Shown here in pieces: positions 2,802 through 40,553 of a stretch of 41,043 bases of DNA; position 1 is the stretch's first letter, and every line of letters begins with the position of its first letter. Source of the stretch: Escherichia virus TH49; sequence record MT446417.1; one strand, given 5' to 3'. A model generated the notes under the pieces. The model made no database searches. It had not been told where the DNA came from and saw only the letters and a program-made list of their open reading frames with translations. The position numbers and the translations under genes were made by a program.

Positions 2802-5522
2802 ATGAACGCATTAAACATTGCACGTAATGACTTCTCAGAGATTGAACTAGCCGCTATTCCGTACAACATCCTCAGCGAGCACTACGGGGACAAGCTGGCA
2901 CGCGAGCAGTTAGCACTGGAGCATGAAGCGTACGAGCTGGGCGAGCAGCGTTTCCTGAAGATGTTAGAACGTCAGGTGAAAGCTGGTGAGTTCGCTGACA
3001 ACGTGGCCGCTAAACCGCTGGTCTTGACGTTGCACCCACAGTTAACCAAGCGTATTGACGACTGGAAGGAGGAGCAATCAAACGCTCGCGGTAAGAAGCC
3101 TCGCGCATACTACCCGATTAAGCACGGCGTTCCCTCAGAGTTGGCCCTTAGTATGGGCGCTGAGGTGCTCAAGGAGAAGCGCGGAGTGTCCAGTGAGGCA
3201 ATCGCACTGCTCACCATTAAGGTAGTCTTAGGGACGCTCACAGACGCCTCAAAGGCCACCATCCAGCAGGTATCCTCTCAGTTAGGCAAGGCGCTTGAGG
3301 ATGAGGCCCGCTTCGGGCGTATCCGTGAGCAGGAGGCCACCTACTTCAAGAAGAATGTAGCGGACCAGCTGGACAAGCGCGTGGGGCACGTGTACAAGAA
3401 GGCTTTCATGCAGGTTGTTGAGGCCGATATGATAGCCAAAGGGATGCTGGGCGGAGACAACTGGGCGAGCTGGAAGACCGACGAGCAGATGCACGTAGGG
3501 ACAAAGCTGCTGGAGCTGCTCATTGAGGGCACCGGTCTGGTGGAAATGACCAAGAACAAGATGGCCGATGGCTCCGACGATGTGACCAGTATGCAGATGG
3601 TCCAGCTGGCTCCGGCCTTCGTGGAACTCCTGAGCAAACGAGCGGGCGCACTCGCGGGTATCAGCCCGATGCACCAGCCGTGCGTAGTCCCTCCGAAACC
3701 TTGGGTCGAAACCGTAGGTGGTGGCTACTGGTCAGTCGGTCGTCGACCGCTGGCACTGGTTCGTACCCACTCCAAGAAGGCGCTTCGCCGCTATACTGAC
3801 GTGCACATGCCTGAGGTATACAAGGCGGTAAACCTCGCGCAAAACACACCGTGGAAGGTGAACAAGAAGGTGCTGGCGGTAGTCAACGAGATTATCAACT
3901 GGAAGCACTGCCCGGTTGCTGACGTCCCAGCGATTGAACGCGAAGAGTTACCACCACGCCCGGACGATATCGACACCAACGAGGTGGCACGTAAGGCGTG
4001 GCGTAAGGAGGCCGCAGCGGTCTACCGTAAGGACAAGGCCCGCCAGTCCCGCCGATTGTCGATGGAGTTCATGGTCGCACAGGCCAACAAGTTCGCTAAC
4101 CACAAGGCCATCTGGTTCCCGTACAACATGGACTGGCGCGGGCGTGTGTACGCTGTGAGCATGTTCAACCCACAGGGTAACGACATGACCAAGGGTATGC
4201 TGACGCTGGCCAAAGGTAAGCCAATCGGTCTCGATGGGTTTTACTGGCTGAAGATTCACGGTGCAAACTGTGCAGGCGTCGACAAGGTTCCCTTCCCTGA
4301 GCGCATCAAGTTCATCGAAGAGAACGAGGGCAACATTCTGGCGAGCGCAGCGGACCCACTGAATAACACTTGGTGGACTCAGCAGGATTCGCCGTTCTGT
4401 TTCTTAGCGTTCTGCTTTGAGTATGCAGGCGTTAAGCACCACGGACTGAATTACAACTGCTCACTACCGCTGGCATTCGATGGGTCATGCTCTGGGATTC
4501 AGCACTTCAGCGCGATGCTCCGCGATTCCATCGGTGGTCGTGCGGTTAACCTGCTGCCTTCTGATACCGTGCAGGATATCTACAAGATTGTGGCCGACAA
4601 GGTTAACGAGGTACTCCACCAGCACGCTATCAACGGGTCTCAGACGGTGGTCGAGCAGATTGCTGACAAAGAGACTGGCGAGTTTCACGAGAAGGTAACT
4701 CTGGGTGAGTCCGTACTGGCTGCGCAGTGGTTGCAGTATGGAGTGACCCGCAAGGTCACTAAGCGTTCGGTAATGACGTTGGCGTACGGTTCCAAAGAGT
4801 TCGGCTTCCGCCAGCAAGTTCTGGAAGATACCATTCAGCCTGCTATTGACAACGGCGAGGGCCTGATGTTTACGCACCCTAACCAAGCGGCTGGCTACAT
4901 GGCTAAGCTGATTTGGGACGCTGTGACCGTGACCGTAGTGGCCGCTGTCGAGGCAATGAACTGGCTGAAGTCTGCCGCTAAGCTGCTGGCTGCTGAAGTC
5001 AAGGACAAGAAGACCAAAGAGGTGCTGCGTAAGCGCTGCGCAATCCACTGGGTAACACCAGACGGCTTCCCGGTGTGGCAAGAGTACCGCAAGCAGAACC
5101 AAGCCCGCCTGAAGCTGGTCTTCCTCGGTCAGGCCAACGTCAAGATGACGTACAACACCGGGAAGGACTCCGAGATTGACGCGCACAAGCAGGAATCTGG
5201 CATCGCTCCCAACTTTGTACACTCACAGGATGGCAGCCACCTGCGCATGACCGTAGTGCACGCCAACGAGGTCTACGGGATTGACTCCTTCGCACTCATT
5301 CACGACTCCTTCGGGACCATTCCGGCTGACGCTGGGAATCTCTTTAAGGCAGTCCGCGAGACGATGGTCAAGACCTATGAGGACAACGATGTAATCGCCG
5401 ACTTCTACGACCAGTTCGCTGACCAGCTGCACGAGTCTCAACTGGACAAGATGCCAGCGGTCCCGGCCAAAGGTGACCTGAATCTGCGCGATATCTTAGA
5501 GTCTGACTTCGCGTTCGCATAA
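2802..5522 (+). CDS. gp1: Single-subunit DNA-dependent RNA polymerase (T7/T3 gp1 family)
   Basis: 906 aa, near-collinear with the recalled T7/T3 RNAP (AGISPMHQPCVVPPKPW, RRPLALVRTHSKK, FPYNMDWRGRVYAV, FDGSCSGIQHFSAML, MTLAYGSKEFGFRQQ, IHDSFGT, C-terminal ESDFAFA). Confidence 0.98.
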   Translation: MNALNIARNDFSEIELAAIPYNILSEHYGDKLAREQLALEHEAYELGEQRFLKMLERQVKAGEFADNVAAKPLVLTLHPQLTKRIDDWKEEQSNARGKKPRAYYPIKHGVPSELALSMGAEVLKEKRGVSSEAIALLTIKVVLGTLTDASKATIQQVSSQLGKALEDEARFGRIREQEATYFKKNVADQLDKRVGHVYKKAFMQVVEADMIAKGMLGGDNWASWKTDEQMHVGTKLLELLIEGTGLVEMTKNKMADGSDDVTSMQMVQLAPAFVELLSKRAGALAGISPMHQPCVVPPKPWVETVGGGYWSVGRRPLALVRTHSKKALRRYTDVHMPEVYKAVNLAQNTPWKVNKKVLAVVNEIINWKHCPVADVPAIEREELPPRPDDIDTNEVARKAWRKEAAAVYRKDKARQSRRLSMEFMVAQANKFANHKAIWFPYNMDWRGRVYAVSMFNPQGNDMTKGMLTLAKGKPIGLDGFYWLKIHGANCAGVDKVPFPERIKFIEENEGNILASAADPLNNTWWTQQDSPFCFLAFCFEYAGVKHHGLNYNCSLPLAFDGSCSGIQHFSAMLRDSIGGRAVNLLPSDTVQDIYKIVADKVNEVLHQHAINGSQTVVEQIADKETGEFHEKVTLGESVLAAQWLQYGVTRKVTKRSVMTLAYGSKEFGFRQQVLEDTIQPAIDNGEGLMFTHPNQAAGYMAKLIWDAVTVTVVAAVEAMNWLKSAAKLLAAEVKDKKTKEVLRKRCAIHWVTPDGFPVWQEYRKQNQARLKLVFLGQANVKMTYNTGKDSEIDAHKQESGIAPNFVHSQDGSHLRMTVVHANEVYGIDSFALIHDSFGTIPADAGNLFKAVRETMVKTYEDNDVIADFYDQFADQLHESQLDKMPAVPAKGDLNLRDILESDFAFA

Positions 5523-5532
5523 GGTCTCAGGC

Positions 5533-5555
5533 AATTAGGGCACACTATAGGGAAC
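5533..5555 (+). promoter_or_regulatory. Phage RNAP promoter (phi1.1A-like), aattagggcacactatagggaac
   Basis: Near-consensus 23-mer directly after the RNAP gene. Followed by a 5' hairpin (gggaacc...gggttcc) and three ACTTAAAG repeats. Confidence 0.8.
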
Positions 5556-5620
5556 CTTCGAATGACCGAGGGTTCCATTACTTAAAGTCTTAACTTAAAG
5601 AATACTTAAAGAGGCATGCC

Positions 5621-6181
5621 ATGACTTACTCAATCGTTGTAACCATCTTGTTAATCATCACCGTAATTCTCCTCATCATGAGCCTAGGTGATGCAGCGGG
5701 CGATAAAGAACGCTTGGAACGTAAGGTACTGGAGGCAAACTCCCAGTTTAACAATGAGTCCTGCAAGGTCCTACGACTGGCGGACAAGGCTGACTCCCTG
5801 AGTAGACAGGTGCGATGGCTTGAGTCCATACTTGAGGAAGAAAAGCAGAATGTGCGCGATGTGAACGCACTCCGGGAGCACCAGCGTGAGCGCATGAAGT
5901 TTCTGCGCAAGTCCCTCAAGGAAGCACAAGACGAGCTGATGATGGTCTCCGACCTGATTCACGTTAAGTTCACCGCTGTGTTGCCGGACGGTACCCACTC
6001 TAAGACGCTCTTTAAGTTAGGGCTTGGGCCGTGTGGTCTCCACGTTAAGTCCCTCCGCTGGACCGAGCTGGATGACCGCTATCTGATAGACCAGCTGTGC
6101 ACCAACGGTGAGCGCAAGCAGTTCGTCTACTACAAGAGTGAAGTGGTAGGGCGTATTGAGTTCCGCCACGGTAAGATTTAA
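5621..6181 (+). CDS. Hypothetical membrane-anchored coiled-coil protein (186 aa)
   Basis: ATG with AAAGAGG upstream. N-terminal hydrophobic helix (IVVTILLIITVILLIM), then a charged heptad-like region, then a Cys-containing C-terminal part. No T7 counterpart recalled at this position. Confidence 0.6.
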   Translation: MTYSIVVTILLIITVILLIMSLGDAAGDKERLERKVLEANSQFNNESCKVLRLADKADSLSRQVRWLESILEEEKQNVRDVNALREHQRERMKFLRKSLKEAQDELMMVSDLIHVKFTAVLPDGTHSKTLFKLGLGPCGLHVKSLRWTELDDRYLIDQLCTNGERKQFVYYKSEVVGRIEFRHGKI

Positions 6182-6202
6182 TTAGGGCACACTATCAGGA
6201 AC
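6180..6202 (+). promoter_or_regulatory. Variant phage promoter-like sequence (phi1.1B-like), aattagggcacactatcaggaac
   Basis: The upstream 16 nt are consensus, but the initiation region is altered (CACTATCAGGAAC instead of CACTATAGGGAGA). It may be weak or inactive. Confidence 0.45.
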
Positions 6203-6205
6203 ATA

Positions 6206-6237
6206 CTCAAGGTCATCACGTTTGGTGGCCTTCATGA
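6206..6237 (+). promoter_or_regulatory. Putative RNase III processing hairpin (R1.1-like)
   Basis: Conserved element CTCAAGGTCAT-loop-GTGGCCTT(C/T)ATGA; the stem AAGGUCA / UGGCCUU has G-U wobbles. It is one of four copies at positions syntenic with T7 RNase III sites. Confidence 0.5.
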
Positions 6238-6270
6238 ATGTCCCTTACTATCACAATCAGGAGCAACACC

Positions 6271-6447
6271 ATGTATCAGAACACAATCAACTTCGAGCGC
6301 AACCGTGAACGTCAGCAGACCGAGGGTTATATCCCTAAGGGCCGCAAGTTGAACAAGACGCAGCGCGGTGGCGGCGTGAAGGGTTCCTTCCGTAACGCAA
6401 AGGGTGACAGCGTTGTTAACCAAGAGAAATACTTCGTAGGAGCGTAA
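6271..6447 (+). CDS. gp1.1: Gene 1.1 protein homolog (58 aa, basic)
   Basis: The motif KGRKLNKTQRG matches the recalled T7 gp1.1 (KGRKLNKTKRD). ATG at 6271 with AGGAG 9 nt upstream. Confidence 0.7.
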   Translation: MYQNTINFERNRERQQTEGYIPKGRKLNKTQRGGGVKGSFRNAKGDSVVNQEKYFVGA

Positions 6448-6450
6448 CAA

Positions 6451-6708
6451 ATGGCTACGGAAAAAAGATGGCTTTTCGATGGGAGCACCTCACAATGGTC
6501 TCGTTTAGGAGCAGCGGAGCGTAGACTGCTGGATACGACAGGACTGCACGTGGTCATGCTTGACGACCCATTCACTAACACCGTGCTGTTCAATGTGTTC
6601 GAGCCACGCGGTTCACTTCTAATAAGCAAGCGGTTCAGCCACTGGTCGATTGACTCAGCGTCAGACTGGCTGGCAAAACTCGCCGCAGACTACTCAAGCT
6701 GGAAGTAA
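6451..6708 (+). CDS. gp1.2: Gene 1.2 homolog (inhibitor of host dGTP triphosphohydrolase), 85 aa
   Basis: Same length as T7 gp1.2 (85 aa), with the C-terminal DWL...WK signature and the syntenic position after gene 1.1. Confidence 0.65.
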   Translation: MATEKRWLFDGSTSQWSRLGAAERRLLDTTGLHVVMLDDPFTNTVLFNVFEPRGSLLISKRFSHWSIDSASDWLAKLAADYSSWK

Positions 6709-6729
6709 TTAGGTCACACTATAGGCAGA
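6707..6729 (+). promoter_or_regulatory. Phage RNAP promoter (phi1.3-like), aattaggtcacactataggcaga
   Basis: 20 of 23 match to consensus, upstream of the ligase gene. Confidence 0.7.
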
Positions 6730-6762
6730 CTCAAGGTCATCGGATTCCGGTGGCCTTTATGA
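6730..6762 (+). promoter_or_regulatory. Putative RNase III processing hairpin (R1.3-like)
   Basis: Second copy of the CTCAAGGTCAT...GGTGGCCTTTATGA element. Confidence 0.5.
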
Positions 6763-6808
6763 TTGCTTATTGCACACTAAATGAACACTACACTTCGGAG
6801 ACATCATC

Positions 6809-7840
6809 ATGAAGAACATTAAGACTAATCCATTTAAGGCCGTATCGTTCGTTCGCTCTGCTATCGAGAAGGCGCTGGAGACTTCCGGTTACCTTATCGC
6901 AGACACTAAGCACGATGGTGTACGCGGGAACATTTGCGTAGACAACACGGCCAACGCAGCGTGGCTCAGCCGGGTCTCTAAGACCATTCCGGCCCTTGAG
7001 CATCTCAACGGTTTCGACCAGCGCTGGCAGAAATTACTGAAAGATGACCGATGGATTTTCCCTGATGGATTCATGCTTGATGGGGAACTCATGGTCAAAG
7101 GCGTGGACTTTAACACCGGGTCTGGCCTGCTGCGTACCAAGTGGCTCAAGGGTACAAACTTCCAATACAGCTACAAGTACCACCCGTGGGAGAAGGGCAT
7201 GAAGAATAAAGCGCCATTCCGTTTAGACCAAGCGAAACTGCAAGTTGTCCTCTACGATATCATTCCGCTCGACATTATCGAGTCCGGCGATGACTACAAC
7301 GTGATGACCCTCCTCCGCCTTGAGCACGTCAAGGTTGCCTTACCAGTCCTGCAAGACCACTTCCCTGAAGTCGAGTGGTGCCTCTCGGAGTCCCATGAAG
7401 TTTACGACATGGACGAACTCGATGCGCTGTACCGACAGAAACGAGAAGAAGGTCACGAAGGTCTGGTGGTTAAGGACCCTCGCGGTATCTACAAGCGCGG
7501 TAAGAAGTCCGGCTGGTGGAAACTGAAGCCAGAGAATGAGGCTGACGGTATCGTTGTGGGACTCAACTGGGGAACTCCGGGTCTTGCCAACGAGGGCAAG
7601 GTGATTGGCTTCGAGGTTCTCCTTGAGTCCGGTCGAGTGGTATCCGCAAACAACATCTCTCAGGCACTTATGGAGGAGTTCACAGCTGAGGTTAAGCGTC
7701 AGGAGGACGAAGAGGTTAATCCATACCACGGCTGGGCGTGCCAAATCAAGTACATGGAGGAAACTCCAGACGGCTCTCTGCGTCACCCGTCGTTCGACAA
7801 ATGGCGTGGCACTGAGGCTGACCCGACCATCAAGATGTAA
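6809..7840 (+). CDS. gp1.3: ATP-dependent DNA ligase (T7 gp1.3 homolog)
   Basis: 343 aa. N-terminal MKNIKTNPFKAVSFV and the adenylation motif K-x-DG (KHDGVRGN); long blocks match the recalled T7 ligase (MLDGELMVKGVDFNTGSGLLRTKW, KRGKKSGWWK.KPENEADGI, YMEETPDGSLRHPSF). Confidence 0.96.
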   Translation: MKNIKTNPFKAVSFVRSAIEKALETSGYLIADTKHDGVRGNICVDNTANAAWLSRVSKTIPALEHLNGFDQRWQKLLKDDRWIFPDGFMLDGELMVKGVDFNTGSGLLRTKWLKGTNFQYSYKYHPWEKGMKNKAPFRLDQAKLQVVLYDIIPLDIIESGDDYNVMTLLRLEHVKVALPVLQDHFPEVEWCLSESHEVYDMDELDALYRQKREEGHEGLVVKDPRGIYKRGKKSGWWKLKPENEADGIVVGLNWGTPGLANEGKVIGFEVLLESGRVVSANNISQALMEEFTAEVKRQEDEEVNPYHGWACQIKYMEETPDGSLRHPSFDKWRGTEADPTIKM

Positions 7841-17834: not shown

Positions 17835-17881
17835 TGCCCATTATGATTATTACTTAAAGATTACTTAAAGAGGAGACTCAA

Positions 17882-25808: not shown

Positions 25809-25833
25809 CCACACTAAGAGGGGGACTTAAAGC

Positions 25834-40412: not shown

Positions 40413-40553
40413 GACCCTTGAAGACTTACTATAAGACTACTTAAAGTTTCATTCATATAGTTATGCACTATAAGTCTCCTCACAGGTAGAGGGTAGTGAT
40501 GGTAATATCACCCTCTCACCATAAGACACTAAGAGCCAACATAAGGAGGACCT

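What the first reader, a model, noticed from the sequence alone, without database searches (positions are those of the whole stretch)
5533..6237. Extra membrane-anchored coiled-coil gene between the RNAP gene and gene 1.1, bracketed by two phage promoters
In T7 the interval between gene 1 and gene 1.1 holds the phi1.1A/B promoters and the primary replication origin, not a 186-aa gene. Here a consensus promoter (5533) with a 5' hairpin and three ACTTAAAG repeats precedes an ORF encoding an N-terminal transmembrane helix, a long charged coiled-coil and a Cys-containing C-terminal domain. A variant promoter-like sequence (6180) and an RNase III-like hairpin follow. The architecture suggests a membrane-tethered effector (superinfection exclusion, anti-defence or a cell-envelope function) acquired next to the origin region.
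Basis: partly seen in the sequence, partly recalled or inferred. Interest (0 to 1): 0.65.

Follow-up and report, generated by a model that had tools for sequence, protein, structure and literature searches.

The report
Known phage gene 1.05, function unknown
The "extra" gene is gene 1.05, already annotated in K11-like Klebsiella phages with both flanking promoters and shared in shorter form with phage T3; it encodes a membrane-anchored stalk carrying a small beta-barrel head whose job nobody has yet worked out.

Summary
All of them are already annotated parts of K11-group (Przondovirus) genomes. The window is 100% identical to Escherichia virus TH50 and about 91% identical to K11 across this stretch. 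The K11 record lists the same layout: promoter phi1.05, gene 1.05 ("gp1.05 fusion protein", 186 aa), promoter phi1.1, gene 1.1.

The C-terminal 70 aa match Pfam PF25755 (T3 gene 1.05 protein). T3-type phages carry only that domain at the same locus. They annotate the primary replication origin just after phi1.05 and RNase III site R1.1 after phi1.1. So the gene is not a recent insertion. T7 is the genome that lacks it.

New here:
- The positive-inside rule places the stalk and head in the cytoplasm.
- An unbroken heptad register runs over about 84 residues.
- The head is a 6-stranded beta meander with no significant match to any solved structure.
- dN/dS is 0.08 on the head.
- The variable N-proximal segment consists of old mosaic alleles, not fast-evolving sequence.

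A 2025 paper states that no role has been published. My best guess (about 0.45) is a membrane-tethered binder of a cytoplasmic partner. Interest is low to moderate.

The parts
5533..5555 (+). Phage-RNAP promoter phi1.05 (transcription start G5550)
   Evidence: Exact K11-type consensus. It corresponds to the K11 feature 'promoter phi1.05' at 5781-5803. It is conserved in 47 IMG/VR loci.
5551..5576 (+). 5' stem-loop of the phi1.05 transcript (10 bp stem, 6-nt loop)
   Evidence: -17.1 kcal/mol, z -4.39. KP32-type relatives carry a different sequence that also folds into a hairpin. Most other phage-promoter leaders in the window show an inverted repeat right after +1 (read by eye, not folded).
5556..5680 (.). 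AT-rich tract (GC 0.33-0.37) directly downstream of phi1.05. Candidate primary replication origin by position only.
   Evidence: Composition profile. phiYeO3-12 and T7M annotate rep_origin at the equivalent place, starting just after phi1.05 and running into gene 1.05. The T7 origin is phi1.1A/B plus an AT-rich leader. Origin activity was not tested.
5580..5611 (+). Three ACTTAAAG repeats (5580, 5593, 5604). The third runs into the Shine-Dalgarno sequence AAAGAGG (5608-5614).
   Evidence: 11 copies in the window against 0.94 expected. All three copies are kept in KP32-type relatives although the spacers differ. The same motif precedes the ribosome-binding sites after phi6.5 and phi13 and follows phiOR.
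5621..6181 (+). Gene 1.05 ('gp1.05 fusion protein'), 186 aa plus stop
   Evidence: ORF. phrog_6440 matches full length, E 2.7e-93. 86% identical to K11 YP_002003794. dN/dS falls from 0.55 on the TM to 0.08 on the domain.
5627..5686 (+). N-terminal transmembrane helix (aa 3-22), predicted N-out/C-in
   Evidence: Kyte-Doolittle hydrophobicity is 3.14 for the closest 50% representative. Positive-inside statistics on 55 representatives.
5684..5806 (+). Membrane-proximal variable segment (aa 22-62), present as discrete allelic types
   Evidence: Alignment A1. pN 0.40 and pS 0.62, ratio 0.43, which indicates old mosaic alleles rather than positive selection. The same variability is noted in PMC12295037.
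5693..5944 (+). Coiled-coil stalk (aa 25-108), one unbroken heptad register, about 12 nm long
   Evidence: Periodicity 3.45-3.5, reached by 3 of 2000 shuffles; a/d positions are 79% hydrophobic. Continuous helix 3-108 with block pLDDT at or above 90 up to about residue 100 and 84 over 101-110.
5954..6166 (+). PF25755 (Phage_T3_1_05) domain, a six-stranded beta meander. Invariant G134, C138, G139, Q158, G177.
   Evidence: Pfam E 1.6e-26, 92.5 bits against a cut-off of 27. All 95 aligned relatives match it. Domain-only model pLDDT 92.8. Conservation.
5951..5974 (+). Stretch with almost no synonymous variation (codons 111-118); cause unknown
   Evidence: Synonymous diversity 0.006 against a mean of 0.214 in 45 alleles; 4 of 5000 permutations are as low.
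6180..6202 (+). Promoter phi1.1, non-consensus around +1 (TATCAGGAAC). It overlaps the gene 1.05 stop codon.
   Evidence: 2 mismatches to the consensus. K11 annotates 'promoter phi1.1' at the same place, overlapping the stop. The variant form is conserved in relatives; KP32-type phages read TATAGGAAC.
6197..6245 (+). R1.1-type RNase III processing hairpin
   Evidence: It shares the blocks ACTCAAGGTCAT...GTGGCCTT.ATGA.T with T7 R1.1 and folds the same way: a 10-bp upper stem, an internal loop and a lower stem that differs in sequence but still pairs. phiYeO3-12 and T7M annotate 'RNase III site R1.1' here. Cleavage was not tested.
6271..6447 (+). Gene 1.1 (58 aa, basic), the next gene downstream
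   Evidence: Corresponds to K11 gene 1.1 at 6517-6693. ORF list.

Best explanation
The interval is the standard phi1.05 / gene 1.05 / phi1.1 / R1.1 module of K11-like phages (Przondovirus).

Shown:
- Promoter phi1.05 starts a transcript that has a stabilising 5' hairpin and an AT-rich leader. The leader carries three ACTTAAAG units, and the last one runs into the ribosome-binding site.
- The transcript encodes gp1.05.
- phi1.1 and an RNase III hairpin homologous to T7 R1.1 follow, and then gene 1.1.
- gp1.05 has an N-terminal TM helix, an uninterrupted heptad stalk of about 84 residues, and a strongly constrained 70-aa beta-barrel head (PF25755).

Inferred:
- The topology is N-out/C-in, so the stalk and head are cytoplasmic.
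- The stalk forms a parallel homo-oligomer. It would hold two or more heads up to about 12 nm from the inner face of the membrane.
- The head is the working part, because it occurs alone in T3-type and many other T7-like phages.
- The head most likely binds a cytoplasmic partner, and the K11-type fusion holds that partner at the membrane.
- As a class II (and probably early) accessory gene sitting among host-takeover and DNA-metabolism genes, its partner is more likely a host factor (takeover or anti-defence) than a structural phage component.
- The AT-rich leader is probably also the primary replication origin, by analogy with T3-type annotations and with T7.
For: Identity:
- 100% identical to TH50, 90.6% to K11, and 408 phage records match.
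- The K11 annotation shows phi1.05, gene 1.05 and phi1.1.
- Pfam PF25755 and phrog_6440 both match.
- T3-type loci have the same promoters, origin and R1.1.

Real gene:
- dN/dS is 0.08 on the head and 0.25 on the distal stalk.
- The ribosome-binding site and leader are conserved in 47 loci.

Architecture:
- AlphaFold2 pLDDT 95.4, helix 3-108, six strands 112-183.
- Heptad periodicity is reached by 3 of 2000 shuffles.

Topology:
- 53 of 55 TM-bearing representatives have no K/R before the TM.
- They have a mean of 3.45 K/R in the 15 residues after it.

The head is the functional unit:
- Bare-domain forms of 77-99 aa exist, as do TM + coil + domain forms of 160-200 aa and coil + domain + basic-tail forms.
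- All 95 aligned relatives match PF25755.

Early or accessory context:
- In Pseudomonas phage UNO-SLW1 the domain is encoded just upstream of the RNAP gene.
- In Aeromonas phage ST21 it lies in the early block.

Host-linked role is plausible: scaffold-swap work lists this gene among the few that differ between phages with different plating efficiency (PMC12295037).
Against: - No partner, phenotype or expression data exist.
- PADLOC, NCBIfam and PDB sequence searches give only coiled-coil noise.
- Topology rests on the positive-inside rule alone. In this particular allele the flank after the TM is charge-balanced (GDAAGDKERLERK).
- Many family members have no membrane anchor, so membrane tethering is not needed for the core activity.
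- Oligomeric state was not modelled.
Confidence: 0.45

Rival explanations
1. gp1.05 organises phage DNA at the membrane. It would tether the replicating or entering genome (or the replisome or RNAP) to the inner membrane, as phage phi29 p16.7 does. p16.7 also has an N-terminal TM, a coiled coil and a C-terminal DNA-binding domain, and is made early (my own knowledge). The gene lying on top of the probable primary origin would then be meaningful.
For: - The architecture is TM + parallel coil + cytoplasmic head.
- The gene begins inside or next to the region annotated as rep_origin in T3-type phages.
- It is the first gene downstream of the first internal phage-RNAP promoter, after phiOL.
- The weak structural neighbours are small beta-barrels that often bind RNA or ssDNA: Hfq, WYL, DriD bound to ssDNA.
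- Full-length proteins are mostly basic: mean pI 8.6, 80% above 8.
Against: - The head is only mildly basic (mean net charge +1.2; 17% of heads have pI below 6.5).
- T7 replicates without any gp1.05.
- T3-type and other bare-domain forms lack a membrane anchor.
- There is no sequence or fold similarity to p16.7, whose C-terminal domain is helical (my own knowledge).
Confidence: 0.15
2. The protein would be a type II membrane protein with its coil and head in the periplasm, acting in superinfection exclusion or another cell-envelope function.
For: - It has a single N-terminal TM and a long coil, like i-spanins and FtsB/FtsL-type proteins.
- Two cysteines in the head (C138, C160) could form a disulfide outside the cytoplasm.
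- Expression is early.
Against: - The positive-inside rule points the other way in 53 of 55 representatives.
- C160 is Cys in only 60% of relatives (His 31%, Thr 7%), so a conserved disulfide is unlikely.
- Many homologues have no TM or signal peptide and must be cytoplasmic.
- The K11 group already has its spanins, 18.5 and 18.7.
Confidence: 0.08
3. The head is a small enzyme or a metal-binding module built around the invariant Cys138 in the GPCG loop, together with the Cys/His at position 160. The site could form between subunits at the tip of the coiled coil. The head would then modify a substrate rather than merely bind one.
For: - C138, G134, G139, Q158 and G177 are invariant in 95 sequences.
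- Position 160 alternates between C (60%) and H (31%), a pattern typical of metal ligands.
- From the strand order of the model, the conserved loops 133-140 and 160-164 should lie at the same end of the meander as the stalk junction. This is an inference; no coordinates were available.
Against: - Only one residue is an invariant potential ligand.
- 7% of relatives, including T3-type, have Thr at position 160.
- The Walker-A look-alike GxxxxGK is not real. The Lys is present in only 61% of relatives and is Leu here, and the fold is all-beta.
- No catalytic family matched in any library.
Confidence: 0.1
4. The ORF is not a functional gene but a by-product of the origin and promoter region.
For: It overlaps an AT-rich probable origin, and no expression data were found.
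Against: - dN/dS is 0.08 over 76 codons.
- There is a Pfam family with 93 clusters at 50% identity.
- The structure prediction is confident.
- The ribosome-binding site is conserved.
Confidence: 0.01

Closest known systems
K11 gp1.05 'fusion protein' (YP_002003794) and the KP32 'fusion protein' (gene 5; UniProt D1L2T8)
   Same: Same gene: 186 aa, 86% identical to K11 and 65% to a KP32 isolate. The locus is the same, with phi1.05 and phi1.1 on either side. phrog_6440 matches full length.
   Different: Only allelic differences, concentrated in residues 22-62.
T3 / phiYeO3-12 / T7M gp1.05 (90 aa)
   Same: The C-terminal PF25755 domain. The position between genes 1 and 1.1. The promoters phi1.05 and phi1.1, an origin annotated after phi1.05, and R1.1 after phi1.1.
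   Different: No TM helix and no coiled coil, only a short N-terminal peptide. About 36% identity over the domain.
T7 primary-origin region (phi1.1A, R1.1, phi1.1B, AT-rich leader, gene 1.1)
   Same: Two phage promoters, a homologous R1.1 hairpin, and an AT-rich leader with ACTT(T/A)AAG-type units.
   Different: T7 has no gene between the promoters. The order also differs: in T7 R1.1 lies between the two promoters and the AT-rich leader precedes gene 1.1.
Phage phi29 p16.7 (membrane organiser of phage DNA replication). A functional analogy from my own knowledge, not tested here.
   Same: An early protein with an N-terminal TM helix, a coiled coil and a C-terminal oligomeric functional domain facing the cytoplasm.
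   Different: No sequence or fold relationship. p16.7 has a helical DNA-binding domain, whereas gp1.05 has a beta meander. DNA binding by gp1.05 is unknown.
Small beta-barrel folds (Sm/Hfq, WYL, SspB, SH3-like)
   Different: Scores are below significance. gp1.05 is a six-strand meander rather than the five-strand Sm topology. No shared motifs.

Membership tests
gp1.05 family (Pfam PF25755, Phage_T3_1_05) | Match to the family HMM above the curated gathering score | tested here: met
   92.5 bits against a cut-off of 27, E 1.6e-26, residues 112-182 on profile positions 2-72 of 73.
gp1.05 family (Pfam PF25755, Phage_T3_1_05) | Location between the RNAP gene and genes 1.1/1.2, flanked by phi1.05 and phi1.1 | tested here: met
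   compared with K11, phiYeO3-12 and T7M.
K11-type 'fusion' form (phrog_6440) | Full-length TM + coiled coil + domain architecture | tested here: met
   phrog_6440 E 2.7e-93 over residues 1-186 of 186. Alignment with K11 and KP32. Model.
T7-group RNase III site R1.1 | Sequence and secondary-structure homology to T7 R1.1 (upper stem, internal loop, lower stem) directly after a class II promoter | tested here: met
   Invariant blocks in the alignment and the same fold. Annotated as R1.1 in phiYeO3-12 and T7M.
T7-group RNase III site R1.1 | Cleavage by host RNase III | not testable with these tools
   Needs in vitro cleavage or comparison with an rnc mutant.
T7-group primary origin (phage promoter plus AT-rich tract) | A phage-RNAP promoter followed by an AT-rich tract at the gene 1 / gene 1.1 junction | tested here: met
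   Promoter. GC 0.33-0.37 over 5560-5680. Equivalent rep_origin annotations. T7 description.
T7-group primary origin (phage promoter plus AT-rich tract) | Replication actually initiates there | not testable with these tools
   Needs origin mapping.
phi29 p16.7-like membrane replication organiser | N-terminal TM plus coiled coil with a cytoplasmic C-terminal domain | tested here: met
   Topology is inferred from the positive-inside rule.
phi29 p16.7-like membrane replication organiser | Homologous, helical DNA-binding C-terminal domain | tested here: not met
   The head is all-beta, and no PDB sequence or fold match to p16.7 appeared. Only a 'works like' hypothesis remains.
i-spanin / periplasmic TM + coiled-coil proteins | N-in/C-out topology and a place in the lysis cassette | tested here: not met
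   The positive-inside rule gives N-out/C-in. The gene lies in the early/class II region, and K11 has separate spanins 18.5 and 18.7.
P-loop NTPase (Walker A GxxxxGK[ST]) | Conserved Lys in the motif and an alpha/beta fold | tested here: not met
   G134-x4-G139 is followed by K in only 61% of relatives and by L in this protein. The fold is all-beta.
Sm / SH3-like small beta-barrel | Significant structural superposition | tested here: inconclusive
Known anti-phage-defence or anti-defence families (PADLOC models) | HMM match | tested here: not met
   Only coiled-coil-level hits, E of 0.011 or weaker.

The most novel reading that the evidence does not exclude
Gene 1.05 and the DNA around it may form one origin-linked unit.

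- The ACTTAAAG units would be origin elements, not only translation leaders. They occur in three copies after phi1.05. They recur after phi6.5 and phiOR, whose T7 counterparts act as secondary origins, and also after phi13.
- The protein encoded on top of the origin would tether that region or the replisome to the inner membrane. It could do so through its head or through co-translational membrane insertion.
- The block of frozen synonymous sites at codons 100-118 would mark an embedded signal. Candidates are an internal start that yields a free T3-like head, or a primase or origin site.
Probability: 0.1. Interest if true: 0.6.

Novelty: already known. Interest (0 to 1): 0.25.

Why it matters
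As a genome feature it is ordinary. The gene, both promoters and the processing site are in the K11 reference annotation, and the domain has a Pfam entry.

What remains open is the function of a domain kept under strong purifying selection in the early regions of T7-like phages of Klebsiella, Escherichia, Yersinia, Pectobacterium, Erwinia, Pseudomonas, Aeromonas and Ralstonia. T7 itself lacks it, which probably explains why nobody has studied it.

Przondoviruses are being engineered for Klebsiella therapy, and this gene is one of the few scaffold genes that differ between phages with different plating efficiency (PMC12295037). Knowing its partner would therefore have some practical value.

The architecture worked out here gives a concrete starting point for experiments: a cytoplasmic head on a 12-nm membrane stalk, with an invariant Cys in a GPCG loop.

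Tried and rejected
- Rfam scan of 5000-7000 at E up to 1: no hit. R1.1 was therefore identified by alignment to T7 instead.
- PDB sequence search with the single protein and with the family profile: only coiled-coil noise.
- Foldseek against AFDB50: not available on the machine.
- PADLOC and NCBIfam: only SMC, PspB, ZorB-type coiled-coil or TM noise.
- Walker-A reading of GLGPCGK: rejected, because the Lys is not conserved and the fold is all-beta.
- Diversifying selection on residues 22-62: rejected. pS is about 0.62 and dN/dS is 0.43, which points to old recombining alleles.
- N-terminal amphipathic membrane helix as a general feature of TM-less family members: rejected. Only a few have a high hydrophobic moment, and many start directly with strand 1.
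- Long-range pairing of the leader with internal TTTAAGT sites: not seen in the MFE or centroid fold of the 701-nt transcript.
- Sigma-70 promoters or intrinsic terminators in the interval: nothing above the shuffle background.
- Literature searches for any functional study of gp1.05: none found. The phiYeO3-12 genome paper is not held in the library.
Full report
**What the window is**

The stretch 5400-6500 is 100% identical to Escherichia virus TH50 (MT446418, genus Przondovirus). It is 90-93% identical to several hundred Klebsiella phages, including K11 at 90.6%.

The K11 reference record annotates this arrangement exactly:
- gene 1 (RNA polymerase)
- promoter phi1.05
- gene 1.05, "gp1.05 fusion protein", 561 nt
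- promoter phi1.1, overlapping the stop codon
- gene 1.1, then gene 1.2 (dGTPase inhibitor)

KP32 isolates annotate the same ORF as "fusion protein".

**Checking the observation**

All the described elements are real.
- The ORF is at 5621-6181 and encodes 186 aa.
- The 21-nt K11-type promoter consensus occurs 12 times in the window with up to 3 mismatches, all on the + strand, against 0.00 expected. The copy at 5533 is exact and the copy at 6180 has two mismatches.
- The transcript from G5550 begins with a 10-bp hairpin: -17.1 kcal/mol, z -4.39, 0 of 200 shuffles fold as well.
- ACTTAAAG occurs at 5580, 5593 and 5604. The whole window holds 11 copies against 0.94 expected.
- The sequence after the second promoter folds into an interrupted hairpin.

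**What the non-coding elements are**

They are the usual furniture of T7-group genomes.
- Most other phage-promoter leaders in the window also show an inverted repeat immediately after +1, read by eye. Several carry ACTT(A/T)AAG directly before the Shine-Dalgarno sequence: phi6.5 has two copies, phi13 has one, and phi9 has ACTTTAAG. Here the third repeat runs into AAAGAGG, six bases before the ATG.
- Across 47 IMG/VR relatives the promoter, hairpin and all three repeats are conserved. KP32-type relatives have a different hairpin sequence (GGGACCCGCTCTGGGTCC) and different spacers, yet still have three ACTTAAAG units. So the hairpin as a structure and the repeat as a motif are both under selection.
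- The hairpin after phi1.1 shares the blocks ACTCAAGGTCAT...GTGGCCTT.ATGA.T with T7 R1.1. It has the same upper stem, internal loop and lower stem, and the lower stem differs in sequence but still pairs. phiYeO3-12 and T7M annotate "RNase III site R1.1" at that position.
- The odd start region of phi1.1 (TATCAGGAAC) is conserved and is annotated as phi1.1 in K11. KP32-type phages read TATAGGAAC.

**The origin question**

T7 has phi1.1A, R1.1, phi1.1B, an AT-rich leader and then gene 1.1, with no ORF in between. Its primary origin is this promoter pair (PMC8373140).

T3-type records place rep_origin just after phi1.05, running into gene 1.05.

In the window, GC content drops to 0.33-0.37 over 5560-5680. 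That covers the leader and the TM-coding part of the gene.

By position and composition this is the likely primary origin. That is an inference, not a test.

**The protein is a real gene**

Among 34 distinct 186-codon alleles, dN/dS differs by segment:

| Segment | dN/dS |
|---|---|
| TM | 0.55 |
| Residues 22-62 | 0.43 |
| Residues 63-110 | 0.25 |
| Residues 111-186 | 0.08 |

The variable segment has pS 0.62, close to saturation. It falls into discrete sequence types. This indicates old alleles being shuffled, not rapid adaptive change.

**Architecture**

- An AlphaFold2 model built on 95 diverse relatives has mean pLDDT 95.4. It shows one helix over residues 3-108 and six strands over 112-183.
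- Residues 25-108 show a 3.45-3.5-residue hydrophobic periodicity, reached by 3 of 2000 shuffles. There is one unbroken register with 79% hydrophobic a/d positions. This is a canonical coiled coil about 12 nm long. It must be parallel, because the chains are anchored at the same end.
- In 55 TM-bearing family representatives, 53 have no Lys or Arg before the TM. The 15 residues after it hold 3.45 on average, usually starting with R or K. The positive-inside rule therefore puts the stalk and head in the cytoplasm.

**The family**

- A full HMMER scan of 1.84 billion representatives finds only 93 clusters, all 242 aa or shorter.
- All 95 aligned members match PF25755.
- Three forms exist: the bare domain (77-99 aa, including T3's 90 aa), TM + coil + domain (160-200 aa, the majority, found in Przondovirus and Berlinvirus), and coil + domain + basic tail without a TM (Elunavirus-like).
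- Foldseek against viral models recovers the fold in T7-like phages of Pseudomonas, Ralstonia, Aeromonas, Providencia, Delftia and Erwinia. All are uncharacterised.
- In Pseudomonas phage UNO-SLW1 the bare domain is encoded just upstream of the RNAP gene. In Aeromonas phage ST21 it lies in the early block.
- So the head is an old early-region module of the Autographiviridae, and the membrane stalk is an add-on. T7 is an exception in lacking it.

**What the head might do**

- Invariant residues are G134, C138, G139, Q158 and G177. Near-invariant residues are F117, A119, F131, G136, V142, K166, F168, Y170 and R178.
- Position 160 is Cys in 60% of relatives, His in 31% and Thr in 7%.
- From the strand order of the model, the conserved loops 133-140 and 160-164 should sit at the same end of the meander as the stalk junction. 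This is an inference; no coordinates were available.
- The GxxxxGK look-alike is not a P-loop, because the Lys is Leu here and the fold is all-beta.
- PADLOC, NCBIfam and PDB sequence searches give nothing specific.

**Literature**

- Genome papers list gp1.05 as hypothetical.
- Kvp1 and Berlin differ at gene 1.05.
- A 2025 paper on synthetic Przondoviruses lists the "fusion protein" among the scaffold genes that differ between KP192 and KP195. It notes the variable N-terminal region and states that no details of its role have been published (PMC12295037).

**Most likely mechanism**

I commit to a membrane-tethered, cytoplasm-facing oligomer whose heads bind a cytoplasmic partner and hold it at the inner membrane. 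I rate this at about 0.45. The partner is more likely a host factor than a phage structural component.

The rivals are:
- a phi29 p16.7-like organiser of phage DNA at the membrane (0.15)
- a Cys-based enzyme or metal site (0.10)
- a periplasmic or exclusion role (0.08)
- a non-gene (0.01)

The remaining probability covers roles I have not thought of.

**Verdict**

The "extra/acquired" interpretation is wrong. The "membrane-tethered effector" idea remains an untested but reasonable guess, with the topology now predicted as cytoplasmic.

The feature is already known as an annotated gene of unknown function. Interest is 0.25.

**Loose ends**

- Synonymous sites are almost frozen at codons 111-118 (diversity 0.006 against a mean of 0.214; 4 of 5000 permutations are as low). 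They are also low over codons 100-118, 128-133 and 141-144.
- This region contains ATG ATG (M106/M107) and two TGGTC sites.
- CTCTTTAAGT at 6008-6017 is the exact reverse complement of the RBS-overlapping ACTTAAAGAG.
- No explanation for this conservation was established.

Noticed in passing
window 5580-5611, 17852-17870, 25825-25832, 40439-40446: Exact + strand copies of ACTTAAAG lie within about 60 nt downstream of phi1.05 (3 copies), phi6.5 (2), phi13 (1) and phiOR (1). In T7 the primary origin is phi1.1A/B and the secondary origins include phiOR and phi6.5 (PMC8373140). The motif may therefore mark origin-associated leaders and not only ribosome-binding sites.
   Followed up: partly
window 5918-5974 (codons 100-118), also 6002-6019 and 6041-6052: Synonymous variation is almost absent in 45 distinct alleles (0.006 against a mean of 0.214 at codons 111-118; 4 of 5000 permutations are as low). 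This implies a constraint at the nucleotide level at the stalk/head junction. The stretch holds ATG ATG (M106/M107; 44 of 45 alleles keep at least one), which could be an internal start for a free T3-like head. It also holds TGGTC, a T7-type primase site, repeated at 6034.
   Followed up: partly
window 5604-5613 versus 6008-6017: CTCTTTAAGT, which encodes the conserved L-F-K-L of the head, is the perfect reverse complement of ACTTAAAGAG, which overlaps the gene's own ribosome-binding site. A 17-nt stretch with 88% complementarity surrounds it. The MFE fold of the transcript does not use this pairing.
   Followed up: partly
L011, L018, L022 and other loci, positions about 1413-1435 (phi1.05), versus window 5533-5555: Przondoviruses fall into two promoter types at positions -10 to -7: AATTAGGGCAC... 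(K11 type, as in this window) and AATTAGGTAGC... (KP32 type). The split is seen at both phi1.05 and phi1.1. It suggests two RNAP specificities that move around within the genus.
   Followed up: no
L010 (Klebsiella phage KN3-1) 1096-1416: An extra, unannotated 106-aa ORF lies between gene 1.05 and phi1.1/gene 1.1, in an insertion of about 330 bp relative to the window. The 1.05/1.1 junction is therefore a site where extra genes are inserted.
   Followed up: partly
window 4485-5222, minus strand: A 245-aa ORF lies antisense within the RNA polymerase gene. The KN3-1 record annotates the equivalent ORF as 'integral membrane protein'. This is probably a spurious call.
   Followed up: no
gp1.05 residues 138 and 160 (window 6032-6034, 6098-6100): Cys138 is invariant in 95 relatives, while position 160 alternates between Cys (60%), His (31%) and Thr (7%). 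This pattern would fit a shared metal site between subunits.
   Followed up: partly
whole window: The only 100% match is an UNVERIFIED, unannotated record named 'Escherichia virus TH50' with host E. coli, although every close relative is a Klebsiella phage.
   Followed up: no
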